From Candidatus Omnitrophota bacterium (GTDB taxonomy: Bacteria; Omnitrophota; Gorgyraeia; Gygaellales; Profunditerraquicolaceae): DNA of 64,000 nt. The notes under the pieces are model-generated. The model had not been told where the DNA came from and did not search any database. It saw only the letters and a list, made by a program, of their open reading frames with translations. Numbering within the stretch: the first letter of the stretch is position 1; each line of letters starts with the position of its first letter. The stretch lies in assembly GCA_903852325.1 (NCBI GenBank), contig CAINQO010000080.1:2732-66731 (forward strand), written 5' to 3'. Made by a program: the position numbers and the translations under genes. Shown here in pieces: positions 8,664 to 57,218 of this stretch.

Positions 8664-9317
8664 TTATTGGGCCTGGGCGGCTGGCGCTGATTCCTGGACC
8701 GGAGCAGAGGTCGCTGCCGATTCCTGTGCCGGGGTAGAAATTGGCGTCGATTCCTGCATTGCAACCGGAGCAGAGGTCGCTGCCGATTCCTGTGCCGGGG
8801 CTGCCGGAGTAGAAACCGCTGCCGGTTCCTGGATTACGGGAGCCTGACTCATGTCGCCCGCAGCACCGGAGGCATTAACCGCCGGGGTTGCCGGAGCCAC
8901 GGCGGTGCTTTCTACCACCGGTGAAGAAGTATCTTCCGGTTTTTCCAAGCTGATATTCTTGGCGAGGTTGCGATTATCCGGGCTGCTGACATAATCGATA
9001 CTTAAAGTATCTTTTAATTTCAGCTCACTGAAATCCTTAACGTTTTCAAAGGTAGTTTTATCATCAACCGCTAAAACCAGGTCTTTTTCCTGGTCAGTTT
9101 CATAATCAAGGTACTTTAAAGTTATGGTTTTGGCTTGCGCGTCCAGGTCCGTCACTTCTCCCCAAGCCCACTGGATCTCCCCTTCTTTTGAGGCAGTTTG
9201 GTTAGTGATCAAAACGGAATCTGGAGTGGCGGCAGAATCCTGGGCAAAGACAATTTGCGCAGCAGTCAGCGTAATTATTGCAATCCCGGCCAAAACAACC
9301 ATTTTTTTCAAACTCAT
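8664..9317 (-). CDS. secreted low-complexity repeat protein (Ala/Pro/Ser/Gln-rich C-terminal repeats)
   Basis: N-terminal signal peptide and a strong RBS (AAGGAGG). The C-terminal half consists of ESAATSAPV-type repeats. Confidence 0.5.
   Translation of the reverse strand: MSLKKMVVLAGIAIITLTAAQIVFAQDSAATPDSVLITNQTASKEGEIQWAWGEVTDLDAQAKTITLKYLDYETDQEKDLVLAVDDKTTFENVKDFSELKLKDTLSIDYVSSPDNRNLAKNISLEKPEDTSSPVVESTAVAPATPAVNASGAAGDMSQAPVIQEPAAVSTPAAPAQESAATSAPVAMQESTPISTPAQESAATSAPVQESAPAAQAQ
8690..8840. repeat. degenerate tandem nucleotide repeat (period ~66 nt) inside the secreted repeat-protein gene
   Basis: The 34-mer ggagcagaggtcgctgccgattcctgtgccgggg occurs at 8701-8734 and again at 8767-8800. 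Partial copies flank both. Confidence 0.6.
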
Positions 9318-13441: not shown

Positions 13442-14398
13442 ATGTTATACAATGCCTTTATGACCGCCAACATAGAAGACCATTACCGCCTGATCAGAAG
13501 GATCCTTCTGGCTGTACTGGCGTTAAACTGGACCGTGGCGCTGGCTAAGATCATCTACGGATTAAGCAGCCGCTGCTCCAGCATGACTGCGGACGGATTC
13601 CATTCTTTAGGCGACGGTACTTCCAATCTCATCGGGTTGATCGGAATCCATTTCGCCTGCCGGCCGGTAGACAAGGACCATCCTTACGGGCACAAAAAAT
13701 ACGAAACCTTATTCTCCCTGGGGATTGCCGCCATGCTCTTCCTGGTCTCCTGGAACCTGCTTAAGACAGGCTGGCTGCGTTTGCACCATCCGGTTGCCTT
13801 TCAGGCCGACTGGCGGAGTTTTACGATAATGCTGGTGACCTTGACGATAAACTTCCTGGTCATGCGCTATGAGTATAAAAAAGGCCGGGCTTTAAAAAGC
13901 GATATCCTGGTTTCGGATTCCCTGCATACCCGGACGGATATTTTTACTTCCTTGGCCGTAATTGTCTCTTTGATCGTAACCAGCCTGGGGTTTCCTTTGA
14001 TCGACCCTATCGTCACAATCATGATCTCCCTGTTTATCGGGTACGCTGCCTTTGAAATCGCCAAACAAAGCTCCGACGTCCTTTGCGATACCGCGGTCTT
14101 CCTGGATGACCAGAAGATTATCGACCTCGTATTAAAAACGGCCGGGGTAACTTCCTGCCATCAGATCCGCAGCCGCGGCCGGATGGACGATATCCATATC
14201 GATTTACATGTGCTGGTTAATCCCGATATGCACATGGATGACGCCCACCGGATAAGCGACAGCATCGAGGAAACGATCAAATCCGGTATTCCCGGGATTA
14301 CCGACGTGGTCGTGCATATGGAGCCCGATGACGAGACAAACATCCCCGGCACCGCGGGGAAAAAACCTGCTTTGCGCAAATCAAAATCTAAAAAATAA
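13442..14398 (+). CDS. cation diffusion facilitator (CDF) family divalent-metal efflux transporter
   Basis: HSLGDG signature, six TM helices and a C-terminal cytoplasmic domain. A divergent promoter (TTGACA at 13419-13424) lies upstream. Confidence 0.8.
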   Translation: MLYNAFMTANIEDHYRLIRRILLAVLALNWTVALAKIIYGLSSRCSSMTADGFHSLGDGTSNLIGLIGIHFACRPVDKDHPYGHKKYETLFSLGIAAMLFLVSWNLLKTGWLRLHHPVAFQADWRSFTIMLVTLTINFLVMRYEYKKGRALKSDILVSDSLHTRTDIFTSLAVIVSLIVTSLGFPLIDPIVTIMISLFIGYAAFEIAKQSSDVLCDTAVFLDDQKIIDLVLKTAGVTSCHQIRSRGRMDDIHIDLHVLVNPDMHMDDAHRISDSIEETIKSGIPGITDVVVHMEPDDETNIPGTAGKKPALRKSKSKK

Positions 14399-21088: not shown

Positions 21089-22618
21089 TTATAACACTTT
21101 ATTGCCTTTTAACGTAGGATTAAATTCCATATACCGGGCCAGCATCAGCCTGGTCTGGGCGTCGATTGCCGGAGCGGAACCGACAATCAAAATAATAAAC
21201 GGTACAAAGATCCATTCGATAATTAAAAGCCCCTGCTTTAACCAGCTGGTCCCTTTCGGCCGGGGAGGCAGAATGGTCCAGCTTAAGAATACCCAGGTCA
21301 GGCTGGTCAAAAGGGTAAACCGGAACAATAGGCCGGTGATCTTGGGCAGATTATAAGCGATCGACATCTGGCTGAAGAAAGCCCCTCCGAAAAATATGGG
21401 CAACGGGCCGATAAAGACCAGGATTACCGCCCAAACCGCCCAGGTGACATGGCTTTCCAGCAGATGGAAGGACCGCCTTATTTTACTCACCAGGGGGATT
21501 TTATTGTTTTTTATAAAACCGCTGACGACAAAAGGAAAATTCTCTACCCCCCAGGCCCACCTTCTTTTCTGTTTATACTGCACCGCGATCGTGCGCCAGA
21601 GGTTGCTGGAATAAGCCGCATCCAGGGAAACGGTGACATACAGCGGGACGACCCGGTAATCCCCGTTATAGTGCAAATACCCTTTCCAATAAATAACCGA
21701 ATCATCCGAAATCATATTCGTCGGCCAATAATCGATTGCCACCAGGGTCTTAAAACTCATGCTGTGGCTGGAAAAGGTAACGAACTTTTCCAGGCGCATG
21801 CTTTCGATCATCTGGCAGAATGAGCTGCTCACTTCGATCAGCCTGGCCAGGGAAGGCGCCTGCCAGATATTGTTATTGTAAACCGGCATCGGCTGGTAAC
21901 TGGCCTGGTGCGGCTTGGCGGAAATAAGAAAATGATAACTCAGGCAGCCGAAGTATTCTATTTCCACGCAGGTGTCGGCGTCAAAACAGGAGATGACCAC
22001 CTGCTCATAAGCGATCGCGCGGCTGTCTAATAGTTTCCTGGCTGCTTTTGCTCCCCAGGTAGCATTGGCCCCCTTGGTCCGGCTTTCCCCGGGTAATCCG
22101 TCGGGGTGGAAGGTAGAAAGATAGGCGCCGAACCTGCCGCGGAATTCTTCTTCCAGGATCAGAGCGTTATCGTGCGCCAAAGCATTCCGTTCCTCAAAAG
22201 CCATGATCACGATAATTCTTTCTTTGGGATAATGGCTGGCGGACAAAGCTTCCAGCGAAGGACGCAAGACCTCCAGCCCCTCATTATAAACCGGAAAGAG
22301 CACCACCTGGTATAACCGCGCAAACCCCCGCTCTGAAGGCAACTCCCGGCAAAGCCCCAGCCAATCCTTCCCCTTCTGCCGGAAAAGACGCTGGTGGGCC
22401 ATCACCAAAAGAGTGGTTAAATAAACCGTGCGCACGATCCAGTAAAAGTCAAAAGAAATAATGATCACGGCGCTGGCTACCGGATGCAAAAAAGACAAAA
22501 AGATCAATCCGATAATGATTCCCCAGGATAATCCCCCGGGGATAATTTCAAGGGTGCGCTTTAAAAATATCCCCTTATTCACCGGATCCCTCCTTTTGCG
22601 CCGGCTTCGCCGCGCCAA
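21089..22618 (-). CDS. processive family-2 glycosyltransferase (cellulose/chitin-synthase-like; QxxRW)
   Basis: FPVYNE, DAD (CFDADT) and QYKQKRRWAWG motifs, with N- and C-terminal TM helices. Confidence 0.6.
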   Translation of the reverse strand: MARRSRRKRRDPVNKGIFLKRTLEIIPGGLSWGIIIGLIFLSFLHPVASAVIIISFDFYWIVRTVYLTTLLVMAHQRLFRQKGKDWLGLCRELPSERGFARLYQVVLFPVYNEGLEVLRPSLEALSASHYPKERIIVIMAFEERNALAHDNALILEEEFRGRFGAYLSTFHPDGLPGESRTKGANATWGAKAARKLLDSRAIAYEQVVISCFDADTCVEIEYFGCLSYHFLISAKPHQASYQPMPVYNNNIWQAPSLARLIEVSSSFCQMIESMRLEKFVTFSSHSMSFKTLVAIDYWPTNMISDDSVIYWKGYLHYNGDYRVVPLYVTVSLDAAYSSNLWRTIAVQYKQKRRWAWGVENFPFVVSGFIKNNKIPLVSKIRRSFHLLESHVTWAVWAVILVFIGPLPIFFGGAFFSQMSIAYNLPKITGLLFRFTLLTSLTWVFLSWTILPPRPKGTSWLKQGLLIIEWIFVPFIILIVGSAPAIDAQTRLMLARYMEFNPTLKGNKVL

Positions 22619-32354: not shown

Positions 32355-32732
32355 ATGGGCAAAAAAATCCTGGTAATCGATGACGACTACAATATCGCCA
32401 AGAAAAGCAAGGAAGAACTGCTGGCGGCGGGTTATACGGTAGTGGTTGCCTATTGCGCTAAAGAAGGAATGGAAAAGTTAAAAGCGGAAAAACCGGATTG
32501 CGTGCTGCTGGACCTGGTTTTACCGGATGAAAGCGGATTTAAAGTCGCCCAGGAGATCAAGGCGCTGCCTGAATTCGCGGATACGCCGATCATCGCCGCC
32601 TCCCTGAAACACGAAGAGGTGGACAAACATATCGCCGCCAAAAGCGGGATTACCGTCTACGTCGAAAAACCTATCGATTATACCAGACTGCTTTTTGATA
32701 TTAAGGATGTTCTGGGCGGCGGGATTAAATAA
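32355..32732 (+). CDS. single-domain response regulator (CheY-like receiver)
   Basis: The acidic-pocket sequence ILVIDDD lies at the N-terminus, with the phospho-acceptor Asp in VLLDLVLPD and the conserved Lys in EKP. The start was trimmed from the GTG at 32340 to the ATG at 32355. Confidence 0.75.
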   Translation: MGKKILVIDDDYNIAKKSKEELLAAGYTVVVAYCAKEGMEKLKAEKPDCVLLDLVLPDESGFKVAQEIKALPEFADTPIIAASLKHEEVDKHIAAKSGITVYVEKPIDYTRLLFDIKDVLGGGIK

Positions 32733-35130
32733 CGATATTCACCAGTTTCTGCGGGACAATAATAAATTTCTTCGGGGTTTTTCCTTCCAACCAGGGAACC
32801 ACTTTCTGATCGGCCAATACCAGCGCTTTTAATTTTTCCTCGGAAATATCCCGGGCAACCGCGATCTTGCTGCGTAACTTACCGTTAACCTGGATCGGCA
32901 GTTCTATCGTCTCTTCGACCAGCAGCTGCGGGTCATATTGCGGCCAGGAAGCCTTAAACACGCTTCCCTGGTTCCCCAAAATCTGCCAAAGCTCCTCGGA
33001 AAAATGCGGGACGATCGGGCTAAGCATGACCACTAATTTGGAAAACACCTCTTTATCGGCGCCCAGCTGGTAAATGGCATTGGTCAATTCCATGAAAGAG
33101 GCGATCGCGGTATTAAATTTAAATTCCCCGAAATCCTGGCTTACTTTTTTGATCGTTCGATGCAAATGCTTTAAAACCTGCGGGTCGGCCTTATCTTTAA
33201 GGTTATCCTGGATCCTCCATACCCGGTTTAAAAATTTAAAAGCCCCTTCCAGCCCGCGCTCATCCCACTCCAGCTCCGTTTCCGGAGGAGCGGCAAACAG
33301 GATAAACAGCCGCAGGGAATCCGCCCCGTAATTTTTGATCATCGAATCCGGATCAACGATGTTTCCCCGGGATTTAGACATTACCTCCCCGTCTTTAAGC
33401 ACCATCCCCTGCGTCAGCAGCCTTTCGAAGGGCTCGTTAAAATCCACCATTTCTAAATCCTGAAAAAATTTGGTAAAAAACCGGGAATACAAAAGATGCA
33501 AAATCGCGTGCTCGATCCCTCCGATATACTGATCTACCGGCATCCAGTATTTTGCTTCTTTAAGATCAAAAGGCGCCGCGTTAAATTGCGGGGAGCAGAA
33601 CCTTAAAAAATACCAGGAAGAATCGAAGAAAGTAGCCATGGTATCGGTCTCCCGCCTGGCATTTTTACCGCATTTAGGGCAGGCTGCTTCGACAAACTCC
33701 TTGACCTTGGCCAGCGGGCTGCCCCCCTCCCCGGTAAAAGGCGCGTCTTTGGGTAACTCCACCGGCAGATCTTTCTCGTTTACCGGCACCGGGCCGCACT
33801 CCGGGCAATAAATTATGGGGATTGGCGTCCCCCAGTAGCGCTGCCGGGAGATCAACCAATCCCGCAGCCGCCAATGTTCCTGGATCTTGCCGATACCTTT
33901 TACTTCCATCCAGAGGGCGATCTCTTCTTTAGCCGGAGAGTTTTTTTTCCCGTTAAACTGTCCGGAATTTTCCAAATAACCGTCCCCTTCATATGCTTCC
34001 GCCATTTCATAAGCGGAAAGCCTGGAATTATCATCCAACCCGGGCTGGATCACCACGCGCAGAGATAAATTATGTTCTTTGGCGAAAAGGAAGTCGCGTT
34101 GGTCATGGGTGGGCACGGCCATGATCGCTCCGGTGCCGTATTCCATTAACACGTAATCGGCGATCCAAATGGGAAGTTCTTCATTGTTCACCGGATTGAC
34201 CGCGAAACTTCCGGTAAACACCCCCTCTTTGTTAACCTCCGAGGAAGAACGAATGGTTTTACTTTCCTGCGCAACCTTAGCGATAAATTCTAAAGCCGCC
34301 GGCTCCTGCGGTTTTCCCTTGATCAACTCTTTGACCAGGGGATGTTCCGGAGCCAAAACAATGTAAGTAGCGCCGAAAATAGTATCTGCCCGCGTCGTAA
34401 AAACGGGGATGACCCGGCCGTTATCCTTTAATTTAAAATAAATCTCCACTCCTTTGCTCTTGCCAATCCAATTCTGCTGCATAAAAATTACCCGCTCCGG
34501 CCAATATTTAAGCTGCTCCAAATTATAAAGCAGTTTTTCTTTATAGTCGGTAATCTTTAAATACCACTGCTCTAAATCTTTTTGTTCTACTTTGGCGTGG
34601 CATCTCCAGCAGCCCCCCTCGATCACTTCTTCGTTGGCTAAAGTGGTTGAGCAGCTGGGGCACCAGTTGACATTGGAAGCCTTTTTGTAAGCCAGCCCCC
34701 TTTCAAACATCTTTAAGAATATCCACTGGTTCCATTTATAATAACTGCTGTCGCAGGTAGAGACCTCCCTCTCCCAATCATAAGAAAAACCCATTTTCTT
34801 TAACTCGGTTTCCATTTCCCGGATGCACTTATGCGTCCAGTCATCGGGCTTGGTGTTATTCTTGATCGCGGCGTTCTCGGCGGGCTGCCCGAAGGCGTCA
34901 AACCCCATCGGGTGCATTACATTGTAACCTTGAAGGGTCTTAAAACGCGCGGCGACATCCCCGATCGTATAATTGCGCACATGCCCCATATGGATTTTAC
35001 CGGAGGGATAGGGGAACATTTCCAGTAAATAGTATTTTTTCTTTTGCGGATCAGGCTGCGCGCGGAAGGCGCGGGTATCCTGCCAGATCTTTTGCCATTT
35101 TTCTTCGGTTTCTTTAAAATTATAAAGCAT
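32725..35130 (-). CDS. leuS: leucyl-tRNA synthetase
   Basis: 801 aa with HMGHVRNYTIGD (HIGH) and KMSKS-region motifs. It also has a CP1 editing domain and zinc Cys clusters. Confidence 0.95.
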   Translation of the reverse strand: MLYNFKETEEKWQKIWQDTRAFRAQPDPQKKKYYLLEMFPYPSGKIHMGHVRNYTIGDVAARFKTLQGYNVMHPMGFDAFGQPAENAAIKNNTKPDDWTHKCIREMETELKKMGFSYDWEREVSTCDSSYYKWNQWIFLKMFERGLAYKKASNVNWCPSCSTTLANEEVIEGGCWRCHAKVEQKDLEQWYLKITDYKEKLLYNLEQLKYWPERVIFMQQNWIGKSKGVEIYFKLKDNGRVIPVFTTRADTIFGATYIVLAPEHPLVKELIKGKPQEPAALEFIAKVAQESKTIRSSSEVNKEGVFTGSFAVNPVNNEELPIWIADYVLMEYGTGAIMAVPTHDQRDFLFAKEHNLSLRVVIQPGLDDNSRLSAYEMAEAYEGDGYLENSGQFNGKKNSPAKEEIALWMEVKGIGKIQEHWRLRDWLISRQRYWGTPIPIIYCPECGPVPVNEKDLPVELPKDAPFTGEGGSPLAKVKEFVEAACPKCGKNARRETDTMATFFDSSWYFLRFCSPQFNAAPFDLKEAKYWMPVDQYIGGIEHAILHLLYSRFFTKFFQDLEMVDFNEPFERLLTQGMVLKDGEVMSKSRGNIVDPDSMIKNYGADSLRLFILFAAPPETELEWDERGLEGAFKFLNRVWRIQDNLKDKADPQVLKHLHRTIKKVSQDFGEFKFNTAIASFMELTNAIYQLGADKEVFSKLVVMLSPIVPHFSEELWQILGNQGSVFKASWPQYDPQLLVEETIELPIQVNGKLRSKIAVARDISEEKLKALVLADQKVVPWLEGKTPKKFIIVPQKLVNIVI

Positions 35131-36579: not shown

Positions 36580-38694
36580 ATGCCGGACTTTAACAGAATC
36601 AGCCGTTTTTTCGAATTTTTTATGGGAGCCGGAGCGCTCATCGGCGTATTCATCTTCCTTCAGCTAAGCATGAGCGCCGAGCTGATCGACCCGGATATCT
36701 GGCTGCACCTAAAAACGGGAGAATATATTGTCCAACACAAATCCGTCCCCCACGCAGATCTTTATTCAGCCTCTACCCATGGCATTGCCTGGATCGACCA
36801 CTCACCGCTGACCCAGGCAATTTTTTATCAGGGATTTAAATCCGGAGGCCCGGACCGGCTGATCTCTATCTCCTGCCTGGTAATGTTTTTGGCCTTTTTT
36901 TTACTGTGGCTCTGTGTTTACAAGGATAGAGAGACATTTTCCTTAAGCATAATTGTTCTGGCCCTGGCCGTCTTTGCCTCACGGACAAGGTTTAATATCC
37001 GCCCGGAAAATTTTTCCGTCCTTTTTTTCTGCGCCTATCTTTTTATCCTGAGCAGGCGCAAAAATAATAAATGGGTATTTATTCTTCCGCTTCTCCAGCT
37101 GGCCTGGGTAAACTGTCACGGATTTTTTATGCTCGGGCTTTTTTTGATCGTTTTATTCATTATCGCCGAATGGCTAAAGCGGCGCGGCGGGCTCCCCTGG
37201 GAATGGTCTAACGGGGAACCAGAGGGAAAAAATGCTCTCCGCAATTTAATCGCCGCATTCGGCCTATCCGCGCTGGCCTGCCTGCTCAATCCCAATGGTT
37301 TAGCGGGGGCGCTTTATCCGCTGAAAATAATTTTAAACCGGGTCCACCCCAACATTCTCAATAACTATATTTTCGAACTCCTCCCTCCCTGGAAATTAGG
37401 GTATAACCGGGTCTTCGTTTATTATCTGCTTTTGGCCCTATCCTCTTTTTCTTTCCTCCTTAATCTTAAAAAAATCAACCTCGCCTATTTGCTTTGCTGG
37501 CTGGCGCTTTTAGGCATCTCCTTCAATATTTCGCGCAACATTATCTTTTTTAACTGTATCGCCTGCCTGGCGTGCGTGGATAACTTTTCGCGGATAAGTT
37601 ACCGGCAATTCACCGGAAGAGACTTCCCCCGAAACCTTTTTTTTATCCTTAAATGCACCGGAATTTCCTTGGTGCTCCTGTGCGCTGCGGGAGCGAGCAA
37701 AAATATCCTTGATGAGCAGTATTATCTTTTTGACCAACACCGCTTTAAAAGCAGATTGCTGGGCATCTCTTCTATCTATCCGGAAAAAGCGGCAGATTTT
37801 ATAAAGTTGAATAAATTGCCCGATAATCTATTCAACTTTTTTAACCATGGTTCTTATCTTATTTACCGGCTTTACCCGGAGCATCATGTTTTTATCGACG
37901 GGCGCTCGGAACTTTACAGCCGGGAGTTTTCCGAAGACTATTACCGGATCATTTATACCGATCCGTCCACGATCGAAAAACTCCTCAAAAAATACCAGAT
38001 TAATACGTTATTATTAAGCGAGAGATTAACCGTTCTGGAAGAGCTGGCCACTTACCTTTACCAAAGCAAAAAATGGGTATTGGTCTACCTGAATGAGGAC
38101 GGTTTGATCTTTGTCCGGGACACTCCGGAAAACAAGGAACTTACCGGGCGTTTAAAAATCGACCTGGATAAGTGGGAGATTAAAAAAGCGGATTTGGGGA
38201 AAGTCCCTCTGGGGAAAGTTCTGCCCGGCGTCCACGTCCGTCTGGCACAGCTGCTCTTTGCCCTGGGTAACGACCAGAAAGCTCGGCTTCAGGCCGAGGA
38301 AGCTTTGAAGTTATTGCCCAGCTCTCCTGAGGCCAACGCTATAATGGGCAAGATTTATTTACGTCAAAACGATATGGGAACGGCTTATCAATATTTGCGC
38401 CTGGCCTTTATTTACGACCAGGAAAGTGCCACCACCCTTACTGCCCTGGCAGATTACTTTTTGAAGTCCGGCGACCGGAAAACGACTTTGGAGATATACA
38501 AAAAAATAATCCGGCTTTTCCCGGAATACGCGCGGGGATATTACCTGGCGGGCAGTTATTACGAAAATGCGGGGGATTTAAAAGCAGCGGCTGTATTTTT
38601 GAATAAAGCGGTCAAATTGGCCCCGTATTCGCAGGAGTTCCTGAATAAATACAATGCGCTCCTGGCCAAAATCCAAGCGGTGAAGCCCCGTTAA
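36580..38694 (+). CDS. polytopic membrane protein with C-terminal TPR repeats (possible GT-C-type glycosyltransferase)
   Basis: About 12 TM helices are followed by at least 4 TPR units. The start is set at the ATG at 36580, which has an AGGAAAAAAAATG RBS. Confidence 0.4.
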   Translation: MPDFNRISRFFEFFMGAGALIGVFIFLQLSMSAELIDPDIWLHLKTGEYIVQHKSVPHADLYSASTHGIAWIDHSPLTQAIFYQGFKSGGPDRLISISCLVMFLAFFLLWLCVYKDRETFSLSIIVLALAVFASRTRFNIRPENFSVLFFCAYLFILSRRKNNKWVFILPLLQLAWVNCHGFFMLGLFLIVLFIIAEWLKRRGGLPWEWSNGEPEGKNALRNLIAAFGLSALACLLNPNGLAGALYPLKIILNRVHPNILNNYIFELLPPWKLGYNRVFVYYLLLALSSFSFLLNLKKINLAYLLCWLALLGISFNISRNIIFFNCIACLACVDNFSRISYRQFTGRDFPRNLFFILKCTGISLVLLCAAGASKNILDEQYYLFDQHRFKSRLLGISSIYPEKAADFIKLNKLPDNLFNFFNHGSYLIYRLYPEHHVFIDGRSELYSREFSEDYYRIIYTDPSTIEKLLKKYQINTLLLSERLTVLEELATYLYQSKKWVLVYLNEDGLIFVRDTPENKELTGRLKIDLDKWEIKKADLGKVPLGKVLPGVHVRLAQLLFALGNDQKARLQAEEALKLLPSSPEANAIMGKIYLRQNDMGTAYQYLRLAFIYDQESATTLTALADYFLKSGDRKTTLEIYKKIIRLFPEYARGYYLAGSYYENAGDLKAAAVFLNKAVKLAPYSQEFLNKYNALLAKIQAVKPR

Positions 38695-38700
38695 CCTGCG

Positions 38701-38729
38701 TTGACAAACGGAAAGTGAAATGTTATATT
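38701..38729 (+). promoter_or_regulatory. sigma70 promoter (TTGACA-17-TATATT) for the tRNA-Leu locus
   Basis: -35 at 38701-38706 and -10 at 38724-38729, about 45 nt before the first tRNA-Leu sequence. Confidence 0.55.
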
Positions 38730-38841
38730 AACTTTCCCGCTCTTAAAGCCGGGGCCGGGCAATAAACGATCGATTTGCCGAAGTGGTGGAATGGCATACA
38801 CGTCGGTCTCAAAAACCGATGAGGGCAACCTCGTAAGGGTT

Positions 38842-38864
38842 TCCGCCACAAACATTGGCGGACC
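38842..38864. repeat. left terminal hairpin of the tRNA-interrupting insertion (TCCGCCAC-aaacat-TGGCGGA)
   Basis: Palindromic. It is an inverted partner of 38984-39006. Confidence 0.5.
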
Positions 38865-38885
38865 TCGCCGGAACAATTAAATTTC

Positions 38886-38968
38886 GCTGGAGTGGTGGAA
38901 TGGCATACACGTCGGTCTCAAAAACCGATGGGGGCAACTCCGTGAGGGTTCAACTCCCTCCTCCAGCA
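38886..38968 (+). tRNA. tRNA-Leu (anticodon CAA), class II with long variable arm, intact
   Basis: The acceptor pairs GCTGGAG with CTCCAGC. The 3-bp D stem flanks a GG-containing loop. The anticodon loop is CT-CAA-AA and the T arm is GAGGG-TTCAACT-CCCTC. The discriminator is A and no CCA is encoded. Confidence 0.85.
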
Positions 38969-38983
38969 CAAAATTCTAAAGGA

Positions 38984-39006
38984 CCCGCCAACGTTTTAGT
39001 GGCGGG
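38984..39006. repeat. right terminal hairpin of the insertion (CCCGCCA-acgttttag-TGGCGGG)
   Basis: Its reverse complement aligns with the left hairpin (CCGCCAC..AAAC..TTGGCGG). Confidence 0.5.
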
Positions 39007-39035
39007 CAACTCCCTTCTTCGGCACTAAATTAAAA

Positions 39036-39072
39036 ATCGCCTTATCTTTTAAGTTAAGGCGATTTTTATTTG
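39036..39072 (+). terminator. rho-independent terminator after the tRNA-Leu locus
   Basis: 9-bp stem ATCGCCTTA/TAAGGCGAT, a 10-nt loop, then TTTTTATTTG. Confidence 0.7.
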
Positions 39073-39220
39073 CTCCCCAGCGATACCAATCTTGCGTCTC
39101 CTTCAATGTATAATCCGGCCTGAGCAAGGAGAAAACCCCGCCATTTAATCTCAATTAACCAACAAAAACCTGCGGCAAGACTCCCGTTGAATAATCTTAA
39201 AATTTAAAAACCGGAAAGAT

Positions 39221-39829
39221 TTATTTAAGGTAAGGAGAGACCCCGCTGTAAATACGCTGGGAGATGATTTGATATCCCCGGGCGTTGGGATGGAAAAAAT
39301 CGCTTTTCATTCCCGGGTTAGTGATAATATTCTTTAAAATCTGAGGGATAAACACCGTCTTTTTCTCCTCGGCCAATTTTCTATATTTATCCCGGTAGGA
39401 CTGCATAAAAAATCCCGAGCTGATGTCGACCAGGACCACGATCGCTCCCTTTTGTTGGATCCGGTCGATGATCTGTTCTAAATTTTTAAGGGTGTCGGAT
39501 TCCGGGACCTTCTGCAGAAAATCATTGCCGCCAAACTCCACGATCACCATCCGCGGGTCCTTATCCAGGACATCCGCCTCTATCCTGGCCAGGGCGTCAA
39601 AAGTAGTATCCCCGTCCACCCCGGCGTTGATCACCTCACGGCTCAAAAGCTTGCTTAAACCCGTAGGATAATCCTCCCCTTCATTGGCTCCGTAACCGAA
39701 GGTAATGCTATCCCCGAAACAGATTATATTTGCCCCCTTAGAATGCAAATTGCGGATCTCCGGCTTAGCGCAGCCGCAGAAGATGAGCAAGGGTAAAATG
39801 AATATTAAACTTAATTTAATTTTTTTCAT
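39221..39829 (-). CDS. SGNH/GDSL hydrolase lipoprotein (TesA/arylesterase-like)
   Basis: Lipobox (IFCGC). GDSIT block I and a GGNDF block. Confidence 0.75.
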   Translation of the reverse strand: MKKIKLSLIFILPLLIFCGCAKPEIRNLHSKGANIICFGDSITFGYGANEGEDYPTGLSKLLSREVINAGVDGDTTFDALARIEADVLDKDPRMVIVEFGGNDFLQKVPESDTLKNLEQIIDRIQQKGAIVVLVDISSGFFMQSYRDKYRKLAEEKKTVFIPQILKNIITNPGMKSDFFHPNARGYQIISQRIYSGVSPYLK

Positions 39830-56496: not shown

Positions 56497-56622
56497 AATC
56501 CTAAATTCTAAATCCTAAACAAATCCAAAATCCAAAACTCAAATTTTCTAAACCGCCGTTTTGGGTTTTAAATTTAGAGTTTTGGGTTTGTTTAGAGTTT
56601 CGTGTTTAGAGTTTAGGGTTTT
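56497..56622. repeat. long AT-rich imperfect inverted repeat (~50-nt arms built from TCCTAAA/TCCAAAA-like units) between the tandem-domain gene and KS-alpha
   Basis: Left arm: ctaaattctaaatcctaaacaaatccaaaatccaaaactcaaattt. Right arm: aaatttagagttttgggtttgtttagagtttcgtgtttagagtttagg. The central loop contains ccgccg. Confidence 0.5.
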
Positions 56623-57218
56623 GTTTTATCCTCCTCTACTCTTTTGACTTTAAAAATAATATTGCCACCATCAGGGCAGGTCACCGTATCGATGGAATTC
56701 GGATCAGGCATGAAGAAAAACTTTGCCCCGAAATTCAGGGCGAACAGCGCCGGGAAAGCGGTGTGAAAAGCCGCCCCGCAGAATCCCGGGATGCATTTTA
56801 ACCCCTGGGTTTCCCATTTGTCCCCGACTTTATAGCCAAAAGCGCATTTGCCTTTGGCCTGGACCACCTCTAAAACCATTTTTTTAGGGTTAGGCCCCTT
56901 ATGATTGGGGTCGCGCGGCAATGCTTCCACTTTGCCTTGCTTATCCAGGATTTCGGCTTTAAATTCCAGCTTTCCTCCGTCCGGGCAGGTCACCAAAAGC
57001 GAACGCTGGTTGTCCCGGAACCCGAATTTTGCGCCGAAGCTTAAGGCGTAGGCAACCGGAAAAAGCGCGTGCGCCAGGCCGAGGCAAAAATGCTTGGGCC
57101 CGTGGGTGAAGTCTTCTAAAATGATCTCGTCCCCGATCTTGTAACCGTGGTAACATTCACCCATTACCTGGGTCACCGTAAGTTTTAGCCGCGGGAAGGG
57201 GGTTTTTACTTCATCCAT
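56613..57218 (-). CDS. protein made of two tandem ~95-aa Cys/His-containing domains (TIGR04076-like)
   Basis: The blocks G(E/K)C..GYK.GD, F(C/H)..A(F/L)..(AL)F.L.FGAKF and VTCPDGG..F recur in both halves. Confidence 0.4.
   Translation of the reverse strand: MDEVKTPFPRLKLTVTQVMGECYHGYKIGDEIILEDFTHGPKHFCLGLAHALFPVAYALSFGAKFGFRDNQRSLLVTCPDGGKLEFKAEILDKQGKVEALPRDPNHKGPNPKKMVLEVVQAKGKCAFGYKVGDKWETQGLKCIPGFCGAAFHTAFPALFALNFGAKFFFMPDPNSIDTVTCPDGGNIIFKVKRVEEDKTKP

What the first reader, a model, noticed from the sequence alone, without database searches (positions are those of the whole stretch)
38777..39024. A tRNA-Leu(CAA) gene split in its T-loop by a 165-nt insertion that carries a second, intact tRNA-Leu(CAA)
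The first 65 nt from 38777 form the acceptor 5' strand (GCCGAAG), the D arm, the CAA anticodon arm and a GNRA-capped variable arm. They end in AAGGG-TT, which is the 5' T-stem plus T54 and T55. The matching remainder, CAACT-CCCTT-CTTCGGC-A, lies 165 nt away at 39007-39024. When joined, the two pieces give a perfect 5-bp T stem, a TTCAACT T-loop and a perfect 7-bp acceptor stem. An 18-nt perfect complement of this kind cannot be chance. The intervening segment contains a complete second tRNA-Leu(CAA) at 38886-38968. It has the same D and anticodon arms but a different acceptor stem and variable arm. The segment is bounded by two mutually inverted palindromic hairpins. The left is TCCGCCAC-aaacat-TGGCGGA. 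The reverse complement of the right is CCCGCCAC-taaaacgt-TGGCGGG. A TTGACA-17-TATATT promoter precedes the unit and a strong intrinsic terminator follows it. The options are: (a) a tRNA gene inactivated by a small hairpin-bounded insertion that duplicated the neighbouring tRNA; (b) a transcript in which the hairpins help excise the insert, which would be an intron-like arrangement at position 55/56 that is not known in bacteria; or (c) a rearranged tandem duplication.
Basis: seen in the sequence. Interest (0 to 1): 0.8.

Follow-up and report, generated by a model that had tools for sequence, protein, structure and literature searches.

The report
tRNA gene nested inside tRNA gene
A bacterial leucine-tRNA gene is split in its T-loop by a small hairpin-bounded insert that carries a second, intact leucine tRNA; this layout is real, recurs across the phylum Omnitrophota, and its split halves are unusually well conserved, so it could be either a slowly decaying relic or a kind of interrupted bacterial tRNA not described before.

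Summary
Joining 38777-38841 to 39007-39024 gives a perfect tRNA-Leu(CAA). The 165-nt insert holds an intact tRNA-Leu(CAA) between two mutually inverted palindromes. It is not an assembly artefact: three independent assemblies are identical, and the same junctions occur in at least six other Omnitrophota lineages, including the complete genome of Ca. Velamenicoccus archaeovorus.

At the orthologous locus, relatives carry three alleles: nested, "empty" (an uninterrupted outer-type tRNA) and inner-only. These are interspersed on the host tree. The inner tRNA is intact in every case. The outer copy is perfect in two full-length alleles, the window and L041, and visibly damaged or riddled with extra hairpins in four (L096, L009, L010, L062); a seventh allele (L265) is cut short by its contig end.

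My best reading is one ancient cassette insertion. The inner tRNA is the working gene, and the outer halves are co-transcribed as its leader and trailer. Homology between the copies drives gene conversion and deletions.

However, the outer exons are 83/83 identical between lineages whose proteins are only 62-77% identical, while spacers diverged. The insert ends can also pair into an ~18-bp stalk. An RNA-level, IVS-like removal that yields a functional outer tRNA therefore stays open (~30%). I found no group I, BHB, ribozyme, transposase or phage signature, and no precedent in the literature.

The parts
38701..38729 (+). Sigma-70-type promoter of the whole unit: TTGACA, 17 nt, TATATT, with a TG extension
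   Evidence: scores it 11/12. The -35 and -10 boxes are conserved in L041, L263 and L265, while the spacer between them differs.
38730..38776 (+). 5' leader between the promoter and the outer tRNA
   Evidence: It is not conserved in length or sequence among relatives.
38777..38841 (+). Outer tRNA-Leu(CAA) exon 1: acceptor 5' strand GCCGAAG, D arm, CAA anticodon arm, variable arm, T-stem 5' strand, T54 and T55
   Evidence: It is 65/65 identical in L041. Uninterrupted versions of the same gene exist in L006, L134-136, L137 and L263.
38842..38862 (+). Left palindrome L: TCCGCCA-CAAACAT-TGGCGGA. Its first 12 nt are complementary to the last 14 nt of R.
   Evidence: It sits at the same junction in L041, L096, L265, L010 and L062, and is degenerate in L009.
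38863..38885 (+). 5' spacer of the insert. It is A/T-rich and begins with the conserved CCTCGCC.
   Evidence: A role as an internal promoter (TTGGCG-17-TAAATT) is my inference only; the scan did not call one.
38886..38968 (+). Inner, intact tRNA-Leu(CAA) with acceptor GCTGGAG/CTCCAGC and no encoded CCA
   Evidence: ARAGORN and Rfam at 59.2 bits. It is intact in every nested and inner-only allele, and its changes between lineages are compensatory.
38969..38983 (+). 3' spacer of the insert (CAAAATTCTAAAGGA)
   Evidence: The motif AAATTTCTAA..GGA is kept in L096 and in the inner-only allele L029.
38984..39006 (+). Right palindrome R: CCCGCCA-ACGTTTTAG-TGGCGGG, an inverted copy of L
   Evidence: A near-identical hairpin, CCCGCCACAAAGCGTTGGCGGG, lies at a non-tRNA intergenic site, L010:1271-1292.
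39007..39024 (+). Outer tRNA-Leu(CAA) exon 2: C56-T60 of the T loop, T-stem 3' strand CCCTT, acceptor 3' strand CTTCGGC and discriminator A73
   Evidence: It is 18/18 identical in L041.
39025..39071 (+). Trailer and intrinsic terminator: 10-bp stem 39035-39044/39055-39064, 10-nt loop, then TTTTTATTT
   Evidence: Read from the sequence. The tool does not list it because its loop limit is 8 nt. Terminator hairpins of different sequence occupy the same place in L006, L041 and L096.

Best explanation
**What it is.** A chromosomal, clade-specific tRNA-Leu(CAA) gene (the 'outer' gene) carries a 165-bp cassette exactly between T55 and C56. The cassette consists of palindrome L, a spacer, a complete standard tRNA-Leu(CAA) (the 'inner' gene), a spacer, and palindrome R, which is an inverted copy of L.

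**Origin.** The cassette went in once, long ago. The nested allele has since been inherited in many Omnitrophota lineages.

**Expression.**
- Shown: one promoter in front of the outer gene and one terminator behind it bracket the whole unit.
- Inferred: the inner tRNA is cut out of that transcript by the ordinary enzymes, namely RNase P at its 5' end, 3' trimming, and CCA addition. It is the tRNA-Leu(CAA) the cell depends on.
- Inferred: the outer halves are carried along as a structured leader and trailer. They can still pair through the acceptor and T stems, and L can pair with R. The inner tRNA therefore sits on top of a long stalk.
- Inferred: the outer copy is dispensable as a tRNA.

**Why the outer copy decays slowly and patchily (inferred).** About 60 nt of sequence identity between the nested copies allows gene conversion. 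The same homology allows deletions that yield inner-only alleles or precisely rejoined 'empty' alleles.
For: **The allele is real and heritable.**
- Three assemblies of the same organism are identical.
- The same junctions, GGGTT|TCCGCCAC and GGCGG(G/A)|C(A/G)ACT, occur in L041, L096, L265, L009, L010 (complete V. archaeovorus genome) and L062.
- The locus is syntenic: LeuRS - AP endonuclease - tRNA-Ala - (TPR) - tRNA-Leu - GDSL - RlmN.

**The inner tRNA is always intact.** It varies only by compensatory changes.

**The outer copy is damaged in four of the six nested alleles that reach their 3' end** (L265 is cut short by its contig end).
- L009 has a C2·A71 mismatch, a broken D stem and a T-stem mismatch.
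- L096 has an altered variable arm and exon 2, and ARAGORN does not recognise it.
- L010 and L062 carry extra hairpin modules in the D region. L062 also has a further ~120-nt insertion inside the T-stem 3' strand.

**Inner-only alleles show the outer halves can be lost.** L029 and L045 keep remnants of the insert spacers and hairpins but have lost the outer halves.

**Concerted evolution is visible.**
- In L010 the outer and inner are identical from the anticodon stem to T55.
- In L010 they also share the TTCGACT loop and a G49-C65 pair that other lineages lack.

**One transcription unit.**

**Nothing mobile or catalytic was found.**
- Among ORFs of 200 aa or more in the 64-kb window there is no transposase, integrase or RNA-ligase gene.
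- There is no intron or ribozyme family hit.
Against: **Exon conservation in this window is stronger than expected for a relic.**
- The outer exons are flawless and 83/83 identical to L041's.
- Yet the flanking proteins are only 62-77% identical, the promoter spacer is 9/16 identical and the leader is not alignable.
- About 31 exon positions are outer-specific or at the edge of the homology, so gene conversion from the inner copy cannot protect them. They show 0 changes.
- The hairpins, which are probably themselves constrained, show 5/44 changes. At that rate, P is roughly 0.01-0.03.

**Outer-specific acceptor bases persist.**
- Positions 3, 5, 68 and 70 persist across the seven nested alleles where readable (L096 keeps its 3' strand only in a downstream repeat unit; L265 lacks exon 2), even where the D arm is wrecked.
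- This holds although the trailers just beyond A73 look homogenised within genomes.

**L/R and the exons rise and fall together.** L and R are conserved where the exons are good and degenerate where they are not (L009). This fits a role tied to the outer copy.

**Perfect 'empty' alleles appear at least four times among close relatives**. That requires either intact exons over long periods or allele exchange between lineages.
Confidence: 0.5

Rival explanations
1. **Functional interrupted tRNA (IVS-like or intron-like).** The nested unit yields two working tRNA-Leu(CAA) species.
- In the transcript, L pairs with R into a duplex of about 18 bp that closes the insert right at T55/C56.
- A double-strand-specific nuclease such as RNase III cuts this duplex, as happens with intervening sequences in bacterial rRNA. 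RNase P and 3' processing then free the inner tRNA.
- The outer tRNA is then either religated or works as two pieces held together by its 7-bp acceptor stem, 5-bp T stem and the residual stalk.
For: - The exons are as conserved as the inner tRNA across deep divergence, while leader, spacers and promoter spacer diverge.
- All outer/inner differences and all differences among outer-type alleles are compensatory. Variable arms seen are GAGG/CCTC, GGAG/CTCC, AAGG/CCTT and GGGG/CTCC. The acceptor is GCCGAAG/CTTCGGC versus GCCGGAG/CTCTGGC.
- The L:R duplex is predicted to be more stable than the two local hairpins: -30.5 versus -23.7 kcal/mol in the window, and -31.8 versus -22.5 in L010.
- The insert termini stay complementary beyond the hairpin stems although the loop-proximal bases differ between lineages: CACAAAC/GUUUUAGUG versus CACAAGG/CUUUGUG.
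- The insertion lies in a hairpin loop at the solvent-exposed elbow.
- Presence and absence among close relatives is sporadic, as for rRNA IVSs.
- After I removed the hairpin modules by hand, the V. archaeovorus outer copy is again a near-perfect cloverleaf.
Against: - No bacterial enzyme system is known to splice, or to tolerate, an insertion at 55/56. The G19-C56 elbow platform is used by RNase P, the ribosome and other partners (established knowledge).
- Four of the six nested alleles with a readable 3' half have an outer copy that cannot be rescued by removing the T-loop insert alone. L062 has an insertion inside a stem.
- The whole-region minimum-free-energy fold prefers the local hairpins.
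- There is no covariation across the split that gene conversion could not also explain.
- Both tRNAs have the same anticodon, so there is no obvious need for the second.
- My removal of hairpins in L010 and L062 was guided by the inner sequence and is therefore biased.
Confidence: 0.3
2. **Site-specific mobile cassette.** L-tRNA-R is a non-autonomous element, REPIN-like or IS200/IS605-like. A transposase encoded elsewhere inserts it at the T-loop of tRNA-Leu(CAA) without a target duplication and can excise it precisely. It carries its own replacement tRNA, so insertion costs nothing. The patchy distribution of nested and empty alleles would reflect repeated insertion and excision.
For: - There is no target-site duplication and the junction is exact. 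The termini are inverted repeats of 8-12 nt, each lying within a palindrome.
- Empty alleles are precise.
- Nested, empty and inner-only alleles are interspersed on the host tree.
- Hairpins of the same family occur at another intergenic site and as extra copies inside the outer D region in V. archaeovorus.
Against: - Outside the tRNA-Leu locus I saw only about 2-3 family-like hairpins in the Omnitrophota part of the sequence scanned (my rough tally, about 300 kb of 825 kb in all). None is in the rest of this 64-kb window.
- The cassette was never seen at any other target.
- No transposase is present among ORFs of 200 aa or more in the window. Y1 transposases of about 150 aa were not screened.
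- Within a species, all sampled assemblies agree: 3/3 nested here and 3/3 empty for L134-136.
- The IS200/IS605 geometry is not met: hairpins in the same orientation, guide sequences, and cleavage sites offset from the hairpin foot.
- Two scans of viral contigs with the junction patterns gave only chance hits.
Confidence: 0.13
3. **Rearranged tandem duplication.** Two or three tandem tRNA-Leu(CAA) genes were reduced by deletions to something that only looks nested.
For: - The inner and outer copies are paralogous.
- Their immediate 3' trailers are alike within each genome.
Against: - It needs two independent deletions that leave exactly complementary pieces (65 + 18 = 83 nt).
- Uninterrupted outer-type genes sit at the same position in relatives, with no trace of tandem copies.
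- The junctions are identical in seven lineages.
Confidence: 0.04
4. **Assembly chimera at 38841/38842 or 39006/39007.**
For: The nested copies share 37 nt of identical D and anticodon arm (positions 8-44). Several relatives' contigs end at this locus, for example L265.
Against: - ENA, JGI and the window assemblies are identical.
- The same junctions are present in six other lineages, including a closed genome.
Confidence: 0.01

Closest known systems
Intervening sequences (IVS) of bacterial 23S/16S rRNA genes, excised by RNase III without religation
   Same: - Both are extra DNA inserted in a hairpin loop of a stable RNA gene.
- In both, the insert ends pair into a long stem.
- Both are present or absent sporadically among close relatives and leave precise 'empty' alleles.
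- Neither needs a catalytic core.
   Different: - The host here is a tRNA, and the site is T-loop 55/56 at the elbow.
- The insert carries a complete functional tRNA of the same identity.
- Neither cleavage nor a fragmented functional product has been shown.
Archaeal and eukaryal non-canonical tRNA introns and split or permuted tRNAs (bulge-helix-bulge, splicing endonuclease plus RtcB)
   Same: - A tRNA gene is interrupted outside the anticodon loop.
- The sequences next to the junctions are complementary.
- Some archaeal tRNA introns carry another small RNA.
   Different: - The organism is a bacterium.
- The junction forms helix / 2x5-nt internal loop / helix, not two 3-nt bulges separated by 4 bp.
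- No endonuclease is known for it.
Bacterial group I introns in tRNA genes
   Same: An interrupted bacterial tRNA gene, which includes tRNA-Leu.
   Different: - Those introns lie in the anticodon loop, are over 200 nt long and have a conserved catalytic core.
- Here the site is the T loop and the insert is 165 nt, of which 83 nt are a tRNA.
- There is no Rfam intron hit.
Small palindromic repeat elements that invade genes (REP/REPIN with RAYT, Rickettsia palindromic elements, Correia/MITE-type elements)
   Same: - The boundaries are short GC-rich palindromes in mutually inverted orientation, like a REP doublet.
- Hairpins of the same family occur at another intergenic site, and they multiplied inside the outer gene in V. 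archaeovorus.
   Different: - Copy number is very low in the sequence available.
- The unit has a tRNA cargo and a single target.
- There is no target duplication.
- No cognate transposase has been identified.
Integrase-mediated islands in tRNA genes (attL/attR)
   Same: The T-loop and 3' part of a tRNA gene is involved, and a tRNA 3' fragment lies downstream.
   Different: - In such islands the 5' part is joined to an element-borne 3' part, so an intact tRNA precedes the island.
- Here exon 1 runs straight into a hairpin, the insert is 165 bp, and there is no integrase.
- Typical att remnants of that kind did turn up in other phyla in the same scan.

Membership tests
Group I intron in a bacterial tRNA | Conserved catalytic core (P3-P9) detectable by covariance model | tested here: not met
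   The Rfam gathering scan of the window and the E<=10 scan of 38650-39150 give no intron family.
Group I intron in a bacterial tRNA | Located in the anticodon loop | tested here: not met
   The insert lies between T55 and C56 of the T loop.
BHB intron / split tRNA (archaeal type) | Bulge-helix-bulge at the exon-intron junctions: two 3-nt bulges separated by 4 bp | tested here: not met
   Read from the sequence and the folds. The arrangement is T stem (5 bp), then a 2x5-nt internal loop, then the 8-12-bp terminal helix, or alternatively two local hairpins.
BHB intron / split tRNA (archaeal type) | Host encodes a tRNA-splicing endonuclease and a ligase | not testable with these tools
   Only 64 kb of the genome is held. 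No such gene is among its ORFs of 200 aa or more.
rRNA-type intervening sequence (RNase III-excised) | Insert sits in a hairpin loop and its ends form an extended duplex | tested here: met
   The site is the T loop. The L:R duplex is about 18 bp at -30.5 kcal/mol in the window, and is similar in L010 and L096.
rRNA-type intervening sequence (RNase III-excised) | Sporadic distribution with precise empty alleles in close relatives | tested here: met
   L006, L134-136, L137 and L263 are empty. The window, L041, L096 and L265 are nested.
rRNA-type intervening sequence (RNase III-excised) | Excised from the RNA, with the host RNA functional afterwards | not testable with these tools
   This needs RNA data or in-vitro RNase III assays.
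MITE (DDE-transposon derivative) | Terminal inverted repeats plus a target-site duplication | tested here: not met
   Terminal inverted repeats of 8-12 nt are present. There is no duplication: exon 1 ends in TT and exon 2 starts with CAACT, and the junction cannot be shifted.
REP / REPIN (RAYT-mobilised) | Palindromic units, paired in inverted orientation | tested here: met
   L and R are each palindromes and are inverted copies of each other.
REP / REPIN (RAYT-mobilised) | Many dispersed intergenic copies and a RAYT gene | tested here: inconclusive
   The window holds only the two copies. About 2-3 family-like hairpins lie elsewhere in the Omnitrophota part of the sequence scanned, which I roughly tally at 300 kb, for example L010:1271 and L045:12490. 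Whole genomes could not be searched.
IS200/IS605-type (peel-and-paste) derivative | No target duplication and hairpins near both ends | tested here: met
IS200/IS605-type (peel-and-paste) derivative | Both hairpins in the same orientation on one strand, with cleavage sites offset from the hairpin foot and guide sequences | tested here: not met
   The hairpins are mutually inverted and begin exactly at the junctions.
tRNA pseudogene | Loss of cloverleaf pairing or of invariant positions in the retained parts | tested here: not met
   This holds for this window: the joined exons are a perfect tRNA. The feature is met in relatives L009, L096 and L062.
Integrase att site in a tRNA gene | Intact tRNA, then the element, then a direct repeat of the tRNA 3' part, with an integrase nearby | tested here: not met
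   Exon 1 is followed by a hairpin, not by a tRNA 3' part. No integrase is in the window.

The most novel reading that the evidence does not exclude
Omnitrophota possess a type of interrupted bacterial tRNA gene that is not a group I intron.
- A palindrome-bounded intervening sequence sits in the T loop (55/56) and itself encodes a tRNA.
- It is removed from the transcript through a stalk formed by its inverted ends.
- One promoter therefore yields two tRNA-Leu(CAA) species. The outer one is either religated or works as a two-piece tRNA.

Related nestings seen in other, unidentified bacterial contigs would make this a wider phenomenon. These include an insert in the anticodon loop with 13-bp covarying arms (L053, L092) and an insert in the D region (L075, L124).
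Probability: 0.3. Interest if true: 0.92.

Novelty: new variant of a known kind. Interest (0 to 1): 0.72.

Why it matters
All bacterial tRNA gene interruptions described so far are self-splicing group I introns in the anticodon loop. Protein-dependent introns and split or permuted tRNAs are regarded as archaeal and eukaryal.

A tRNA gene split at the elbow by a cassette that carries a second copy of the same tRNA, and kept in that state across a phylum, has two possible meanings.

- **If the outer copy is a relic.** It is a clear natural example of how a palindrome-bounded insert, gene conversion and homology-driven deletion shape tRNA genes. It also explains why contigs break and why tRNA finders under-count at this locus.
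- **If the outer copy is matured.** It reveals an unknown bacterial RNA-processing route, or a functional two-piece tRNA. That would bear on long-standing ideas about how split and intron-containing tRNAs arose.

The question can be tested directly, because a cultured enrichment with a closed genome (Ca. Velamenicoccus archaeovorus LiM) carries the arrangement.

Tried and rejected
- **Assembly artefact.** Rejected: three independent assemblies are identical and the junctions recur in other species.
- **ARAGORN intron mode.** Run on the region, it finds only the inner tRNA. It models anticodon-loop introns only.
- **Known RNA families.** Rfam at gathering and at E<=10 gives no intron, ribozyme or other family. 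Exon 1 plus hairpin L scores 27 bits as a 'tRNA' (gathering score 29), because L mimics a T arm. I treat this as an artefact.
- **High-copy REP or MITE.** The hairpin pattern occurs only twice in the window and rarely elsewhere.
- **Phage or viral origin.** Two scans of viral contigs with the junction patterns gave only chance hits in coding sequence. The 14-mer was too short to be specific.
- **L011 (Halonotius).** This hit from the two-anticodon-arm scan is a protein-coding repeat, not a tRNA.
- **Mobile-element or RNA-ligase genes.** None was found by Pfam among the 45 window ORFs I scanned (eight around the locus and 37 of the ORFs of 200 aa or more).
- **Literature.** Searches for nested or split bacterial tRNAs, Omnitrophota tRNA oddities and tRNA IVSs found no precedent.
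- **Extra relatives.** Several look-ups were uninformative. L004, L005 and L131-133 have no tRNA after the GDSL gene. P0122 had no DNA available. L264 and L266-268 end or diverge before the locus.
- **Covariation across the split.** I looked for covariation across the split that would prove RNA pairing. The only cases (A49-T65 versus G49-C65, and CAACT versus CGACT) match the resident inner copy, so they can be explained by gene conversion.
Full report
**1. The observation**

Reading 38400-39400 confirms every element at the stated coordinates.

- Exon 1 (38777-38841, 65 nt) ends in ...GTAAGGGTT.
- Exon 2 (39007-39024, 18 nt) is CAACTCCCTTCTTCGGCA.
- Joined, ARAGORN calls them an 84-nt tRNA-Leu(CAA) with perfect acceptor, anticodon, variable and T stems.
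- The 165-nt insert contains an intact tRNA-Leu(CAA) at 38886-38968 (ARAGORN; Rfam tRNA 59.2 bits).
- The two tRNAs are identical in the D and anticodon arms. They differ only by compensated pairs in the acceptor stem, the variable arm and T-stem pair 49-65.
- The insert ends in two palindromes, TCCGCCA-CAAACAT-TGGCGGA and CCCGCCA-ACGTTTTAG-TGGCGGG. These are the only two matches to that motif in the window (0.04 expected). They are inverted copies of each other, loops included.
- The junction cannot be slid, and there is no target-site duplication.
- A TTGACA-17-TATATT promoter (11/12, with a TG extension) precedes the unit.
- A 10-bp hairpin plus T run follows it.
- The 248-nt unit folds with z = -4.2. 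The outer acceptor stem, both hairpins and the inner cloverleaf all form.

**2. It is not an artefact, and it is not private to this genome**

- The RlmN protein 0.8 kb downstream occurs on 12 public contigs. Two independent assemblies that reach the tRNA (ENA, L001; JGI, L002) are 100% identical to the window over 541 nt.
- RlmN homologues place the organism in Candidatus Omnitrophota.
- I scanned one genome per species for two copies of the anticodon arm 82-112 nt apart. This found the same architecture in an Omnitrophota MAG (L009) and in the closed genome of Ca. Velamenicoccus archaeovorus LiM (L010). The third hit was a chance match in an archaeal protein gene.
- A metagenome scan with the inner tRNA's 3' end was chosen so as not to depend on the state of the outer copy. 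It added L041, L096 and L062. A look-up through the upstream TPR gene added L265.
- All seven lineages share the junctions GGGTT|TCCGCCAC and GGCGG(G/A)|C(A/G)ACT. This points to one ancestral insertion.
- The locus is syntenic: LeuRS, AP endonuclease, tRNA-Ala, (TPR), tRNA-Leu, GDSL lipase, RlmN.

**3. Three alleles occur at one locus**

| Allele | Loci | Notes |
|---|---|---|
| Nested | window, L041, L096, L265, L009, L010, L062 | same junctions throughout |
| Empty (uninterrupted, flawless outer-type tRNA-Leu(CAA)) | L006, L134-136, L137, L263 | |
| Inner-only | L029, L045 | keep remnants of the insert's spacers or hairpins but have lost the outer halves |

- A neighbour-joining tree of RlmN plus GDSL puts the window as sister to a star-like clade (80-88% amino-acid identity). 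In that clade nested, empty, inner-only and 'no tRNA here' states are interspersed. The state has therefore changed several times.
- The variable arms of outer-type genes differ among lineages only by compensated pairs: GGGG/CTCC, GAGG/CCTC, GGAG/CTCC and AAGG/CCTT. L137 has a compensated acceptor change.
- The outer type is thus a genuine, functional tRNA lineage when it is uninterrupted.

**4. State of the two copies in nested alleles**

The inner tRNA is intact everywhere, and its differences between lineages are compensatory. The outer copy varies:

- **Window and L041:** perfect.
- **L009:** recognisable but has a C2·A71 mismatch, a broken D stem, a T-stem mismatch and degenerate hairpins.
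- **L096:** ARAGORN does not recognise it. The variable arm is rewritten. Exon 2 carries six changes that create a perfect 9-bp palindrome with a downstream repeat.
- **L010 and L062:** extra hairpin modules in the D region. L062 also has a ~120-nt three-hairpin insertion inside the T-stem 3' strand.
- **L265:** only exon 1, L and part of the 5' spacer are held before the contig ends, so its exon 2 cannot be judged.

The outer copy is therefore dispensable as a tRNA in several lineages.

Concerted evolution is evident. In L010 the outer and inner are identical from the anticodon stem to T55. They also share a TTCGACT loop and a G49-C65 pair that other lineages lack. Within each genome, the first ~7 nt after A73 are also alike for the inner and outer copies.

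**5. Evidence that does not fit a simple relic**

- Between the window and L041 the proteins are 62% (TPR), 69-70% (GDSL) and 76-77% (RlmN) identical.
- The promoter spacer is 9/16 identical, and the leaders differ in length and sequence.
- Yet exon 1 is 65/65, exon 2 is 18/18 and the inner tRNA is 83/83 identical, while L is 19/21 and R is 20/23.
- Gene conversion from the selected inner copy can protect the shared D and anticodon arms. It cannot protect about 31 positions that are outer-specific or lie at the edge of the homology: the acceptor strands, the variable arm and pair 49/65.
- With the hairpins' own divergence (5/44) as a conservative rate, zero changes in 31 positions has P of about 0.01-0.03. 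With the promoter-spacer rate it is far smaller.
- The outer-specific acceptor bases persist in the nested alleles wherever those strands are readable.
- L and R are conserved where the exons are good and degenerate in L009.
- L and R can pair with each other into a duplex of about 18 bp, predicted to be more stable than the two local hairpins: -30.5 versus -23.7 kcal/mol in the window, -31.8 versus -22.5 in L010.
- The insert's termini stay complementary beyond the hairpin stems, although the bases there differ between the window type and the L010 type.

These points argue for constraint on the outer halves and the palindromes. That constraint could reflect a working outer tRNA, or a leader-trailer stalk around the inner tRNA.

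The caveat is that var-arm and allele types do not follow the host tree. For example, L263 and L006 carry identical empty alleles. Alleles may therefore be exchanged between lineages, which weakens any argument based on divergence times.

**6. Mechanism, and what is shown versus inferred**

Shown:
- the architecture;
- its heritability and phylogenetic spread;
- the single promoter and terminator;
- the integrity of the inner copy and the variable integrity of the outer;
- concerted evolution between the copies;
- the empty and inner-only alleles.

Inferred:
- The inner tRNA is released by RNase P and 3' processing and is the essential copy.
- The outer halves are leader and trailer.
- The ~60 nt of identity between the nested copies supplies the homology for two outcomes. 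One is deletion to inner-only alleles. The other uses the inner copy on a sister chromosome as a splint that bridges exon 1 and exon 2, giving precise rejoining to empty alleles.

I hold this reading at about 0.5. The main rival, at about 0.3, is an IVS-like removal of the insert at the RNA level that yields a functional outer tRNA, either religated or in two pieces. A site-specific mobile cassette is possible but weakly supported, at about 0.13, for these reasons:
- copy number is low;
- there is a single target;
- all sampled assemblies agree within a species;
- no transposase was found among the 45 window ORFs scanned against Pfam;
- there are no viral copies.

**7. Comparison with known systems**

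- It is not a group I intron. The location is wrong and there is no catalytic core.
- It is not a BHB intron. The junction geometry does not fit, and the host is bacterial.
- It is not an integrase att site.
- It is not a classical MITE, because there is no target duplication.
- In form it is closest to two things. One is the RNase III-excised intervening sequences of bacterial rRNA genes. The other is REP/REPIN-like palindrome doublets.
- It differs from both by sitting in a tRNA elbow and by carrying a complete tRNA of the same identity.
- Literature searches found no description of a tRNA nested in a bacterial tRNA, nor of tRNA peculiarities in Omnitrophota.

**8. Verdict**

This is a real, conserved and previously undescribed gene arrangement. 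It is most probably an old cassette insertion whose host gene is decaying slowly. However, the halves show enough constraint, and the insert-closing stalk is plausible enough, that a functional interrupted bacterial tRNA is a serious possibility. RNA data from V. archaeovorus would settle the question directly.

Noticed in passing
L041 (reverse strand), downstream of the inner tRNA and of exon 2; printed: Tandem 30-nt units follow each tRNA 3' end. After the inner tRNA the unit is TTAAACTCTTGAGGAGGGACTCCTTCAGCA, twice. After exon 2 come TTAAACTTTCAAGAAGGGACTTCTTCGGCA and a second, similar unit. Each unit is a small hairpin whose 3' strand copies the preceding tRNA's acceptor 3' strand and whose 5' strand covaries with it. 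L096 has one such unit. The window has none. Their origin and role are unknown.
   Followed up: partly
L053:~600-800, L092:~1000-1230, L043:~2270-2420 (metagenome contigs, taxon not determined): This is another kind of nesting. An intact tRNA-Leu(CAG) lies inside the anticodon loop (after TTCA) of a second tRNA-Leu-like gene. It is flanked by 13-nt arms that are perfectly complementary. The arms differ between L053 and L092 by a compensated pair: CCCCGTAAGAAAT/ATTTCTTACGGGG versus CCCCGTTAGAAAT/ATTTCTAACGGGG. The outer copies look 3'-truncated or decayed.
   Followed up: partly
L075 (reverse strand, ~13470-13770 in reverse coordinates) and L124: A tRNA-Leu(CAA) is nested in the D region of an outer tRNA-Leu-like gene. 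The outer reads GCCGAGGTGGCGG | hairpin + inner tRNA + hairpin | ACTCAAAATCGTG...GGGGGTTCGATTCCCCC CCTCGGCA, with a perfect 7-bp outer acceptor stem. L124 has a further ~220-nt element in the insert.
   Followed up: no
L010:2435-2450, L062:5372-5407, L108:462-473, L053:653-668, L075:183-198, L124:3529-3544, L056:6680-6699; intergenic copies at L043:1495, L074:12806, L062:2450: GC-rich palindromes of the form CCTGCC(TGCC)...(GGCA)GGCAGG recur in the D region of the outer or remnant tRNA-Leu copies, in Omnitrophota and in other contigs. They also occur at ordinary intergenic sites. This looks like a dispersed palindromic element family that tends to land in these tRNA remnants.
   Followed up: partly
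L100, L123, L013, L124: 20-230 nt downstream of a tRNA-Leu(CAA): A structured element of about 150-220 nt follows the tRNA. It begins like a tRNA-Leu 5' end (GTGCTGGAGAG...) and, in L100, L123 and L124, ends with the same 12-24 nt as the tRNA 3' end (...CCTCCTCCAGCA); this end was not seen in the stretch of L013 examined. No Rfam family reaches threshold in the three that were scanned (L100, L123, L124). It may be yet another interrupted tRNA-Leu, or an unknown RNA.
   Followed up: partly
window 32725-35130 (- strand) and syntenic loci L009, L041, L045, L062, L096, L112: The leucyl-tRNA synthetase gene lies 3.6 kb upstream of the tRNA-Leu(CAA) locus in conserved synteny across distant Omnitrophota. 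I looked for no functional link.
   Followed up: no
L010 vs L062: These two contigs share a very similar upstream gene and the same hairpin-riddled outer copy. Their inner tRNAs nevertheless differ in the D stem, anticodon stem and variable arm. L062's inner resembles the window-clade type. This suggests that the inner tRNA was replaced by recombination.
   Followed up: no
L010:2306-2420: In V. archaeovorus the outer 5' half starts at L010:2306 (GCCGAAGTGGCG). It is followed by about 100 nt of three to four hairpins, two of them of the L/R family, and by a second GCCGAAG. The block is flanked by a 5-nt direct repeat, TGGCG. The hairpin 3' strand, TGGCGGA, is the same as the tRNA-Leu D-arm sequence. 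The palindromes may therefore arise by local inverted duplication.
   Followed up: partly
L265:4776 (contig end): This relative's contig stops inside the nested locus, just past hairpin L. That is as expected if the 37 nt of identical D and anticodon arm shared by the nested copies (positions 8-44) breaks short-read assemblies. Nested alleles are therefore probably under-sampled.
   Followed up: no
window 38777-38860: Rfam's tRNA model aligns exon 1 plus hairpin L as a full-length tRNA at 27 bits, just under the gathering score of 29. Hairpin L has a 7-bp stem and a 7-nt loop, so it mimics a T arm.
   Followed up: no
window 21089-22618, 8664-9317, 56613-57218 (all - strand): Three ORFs of 509, 217 and 201 aa have no Pfam match at E<=1e-5. 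They sit in an otherwise housekeeping region that includes SecA, a peptide-chain release factor (PCRF/RF-1 domains), UvrC, MurJ, ComEC and fatty-acid synthesis genes.
   Followed up: no
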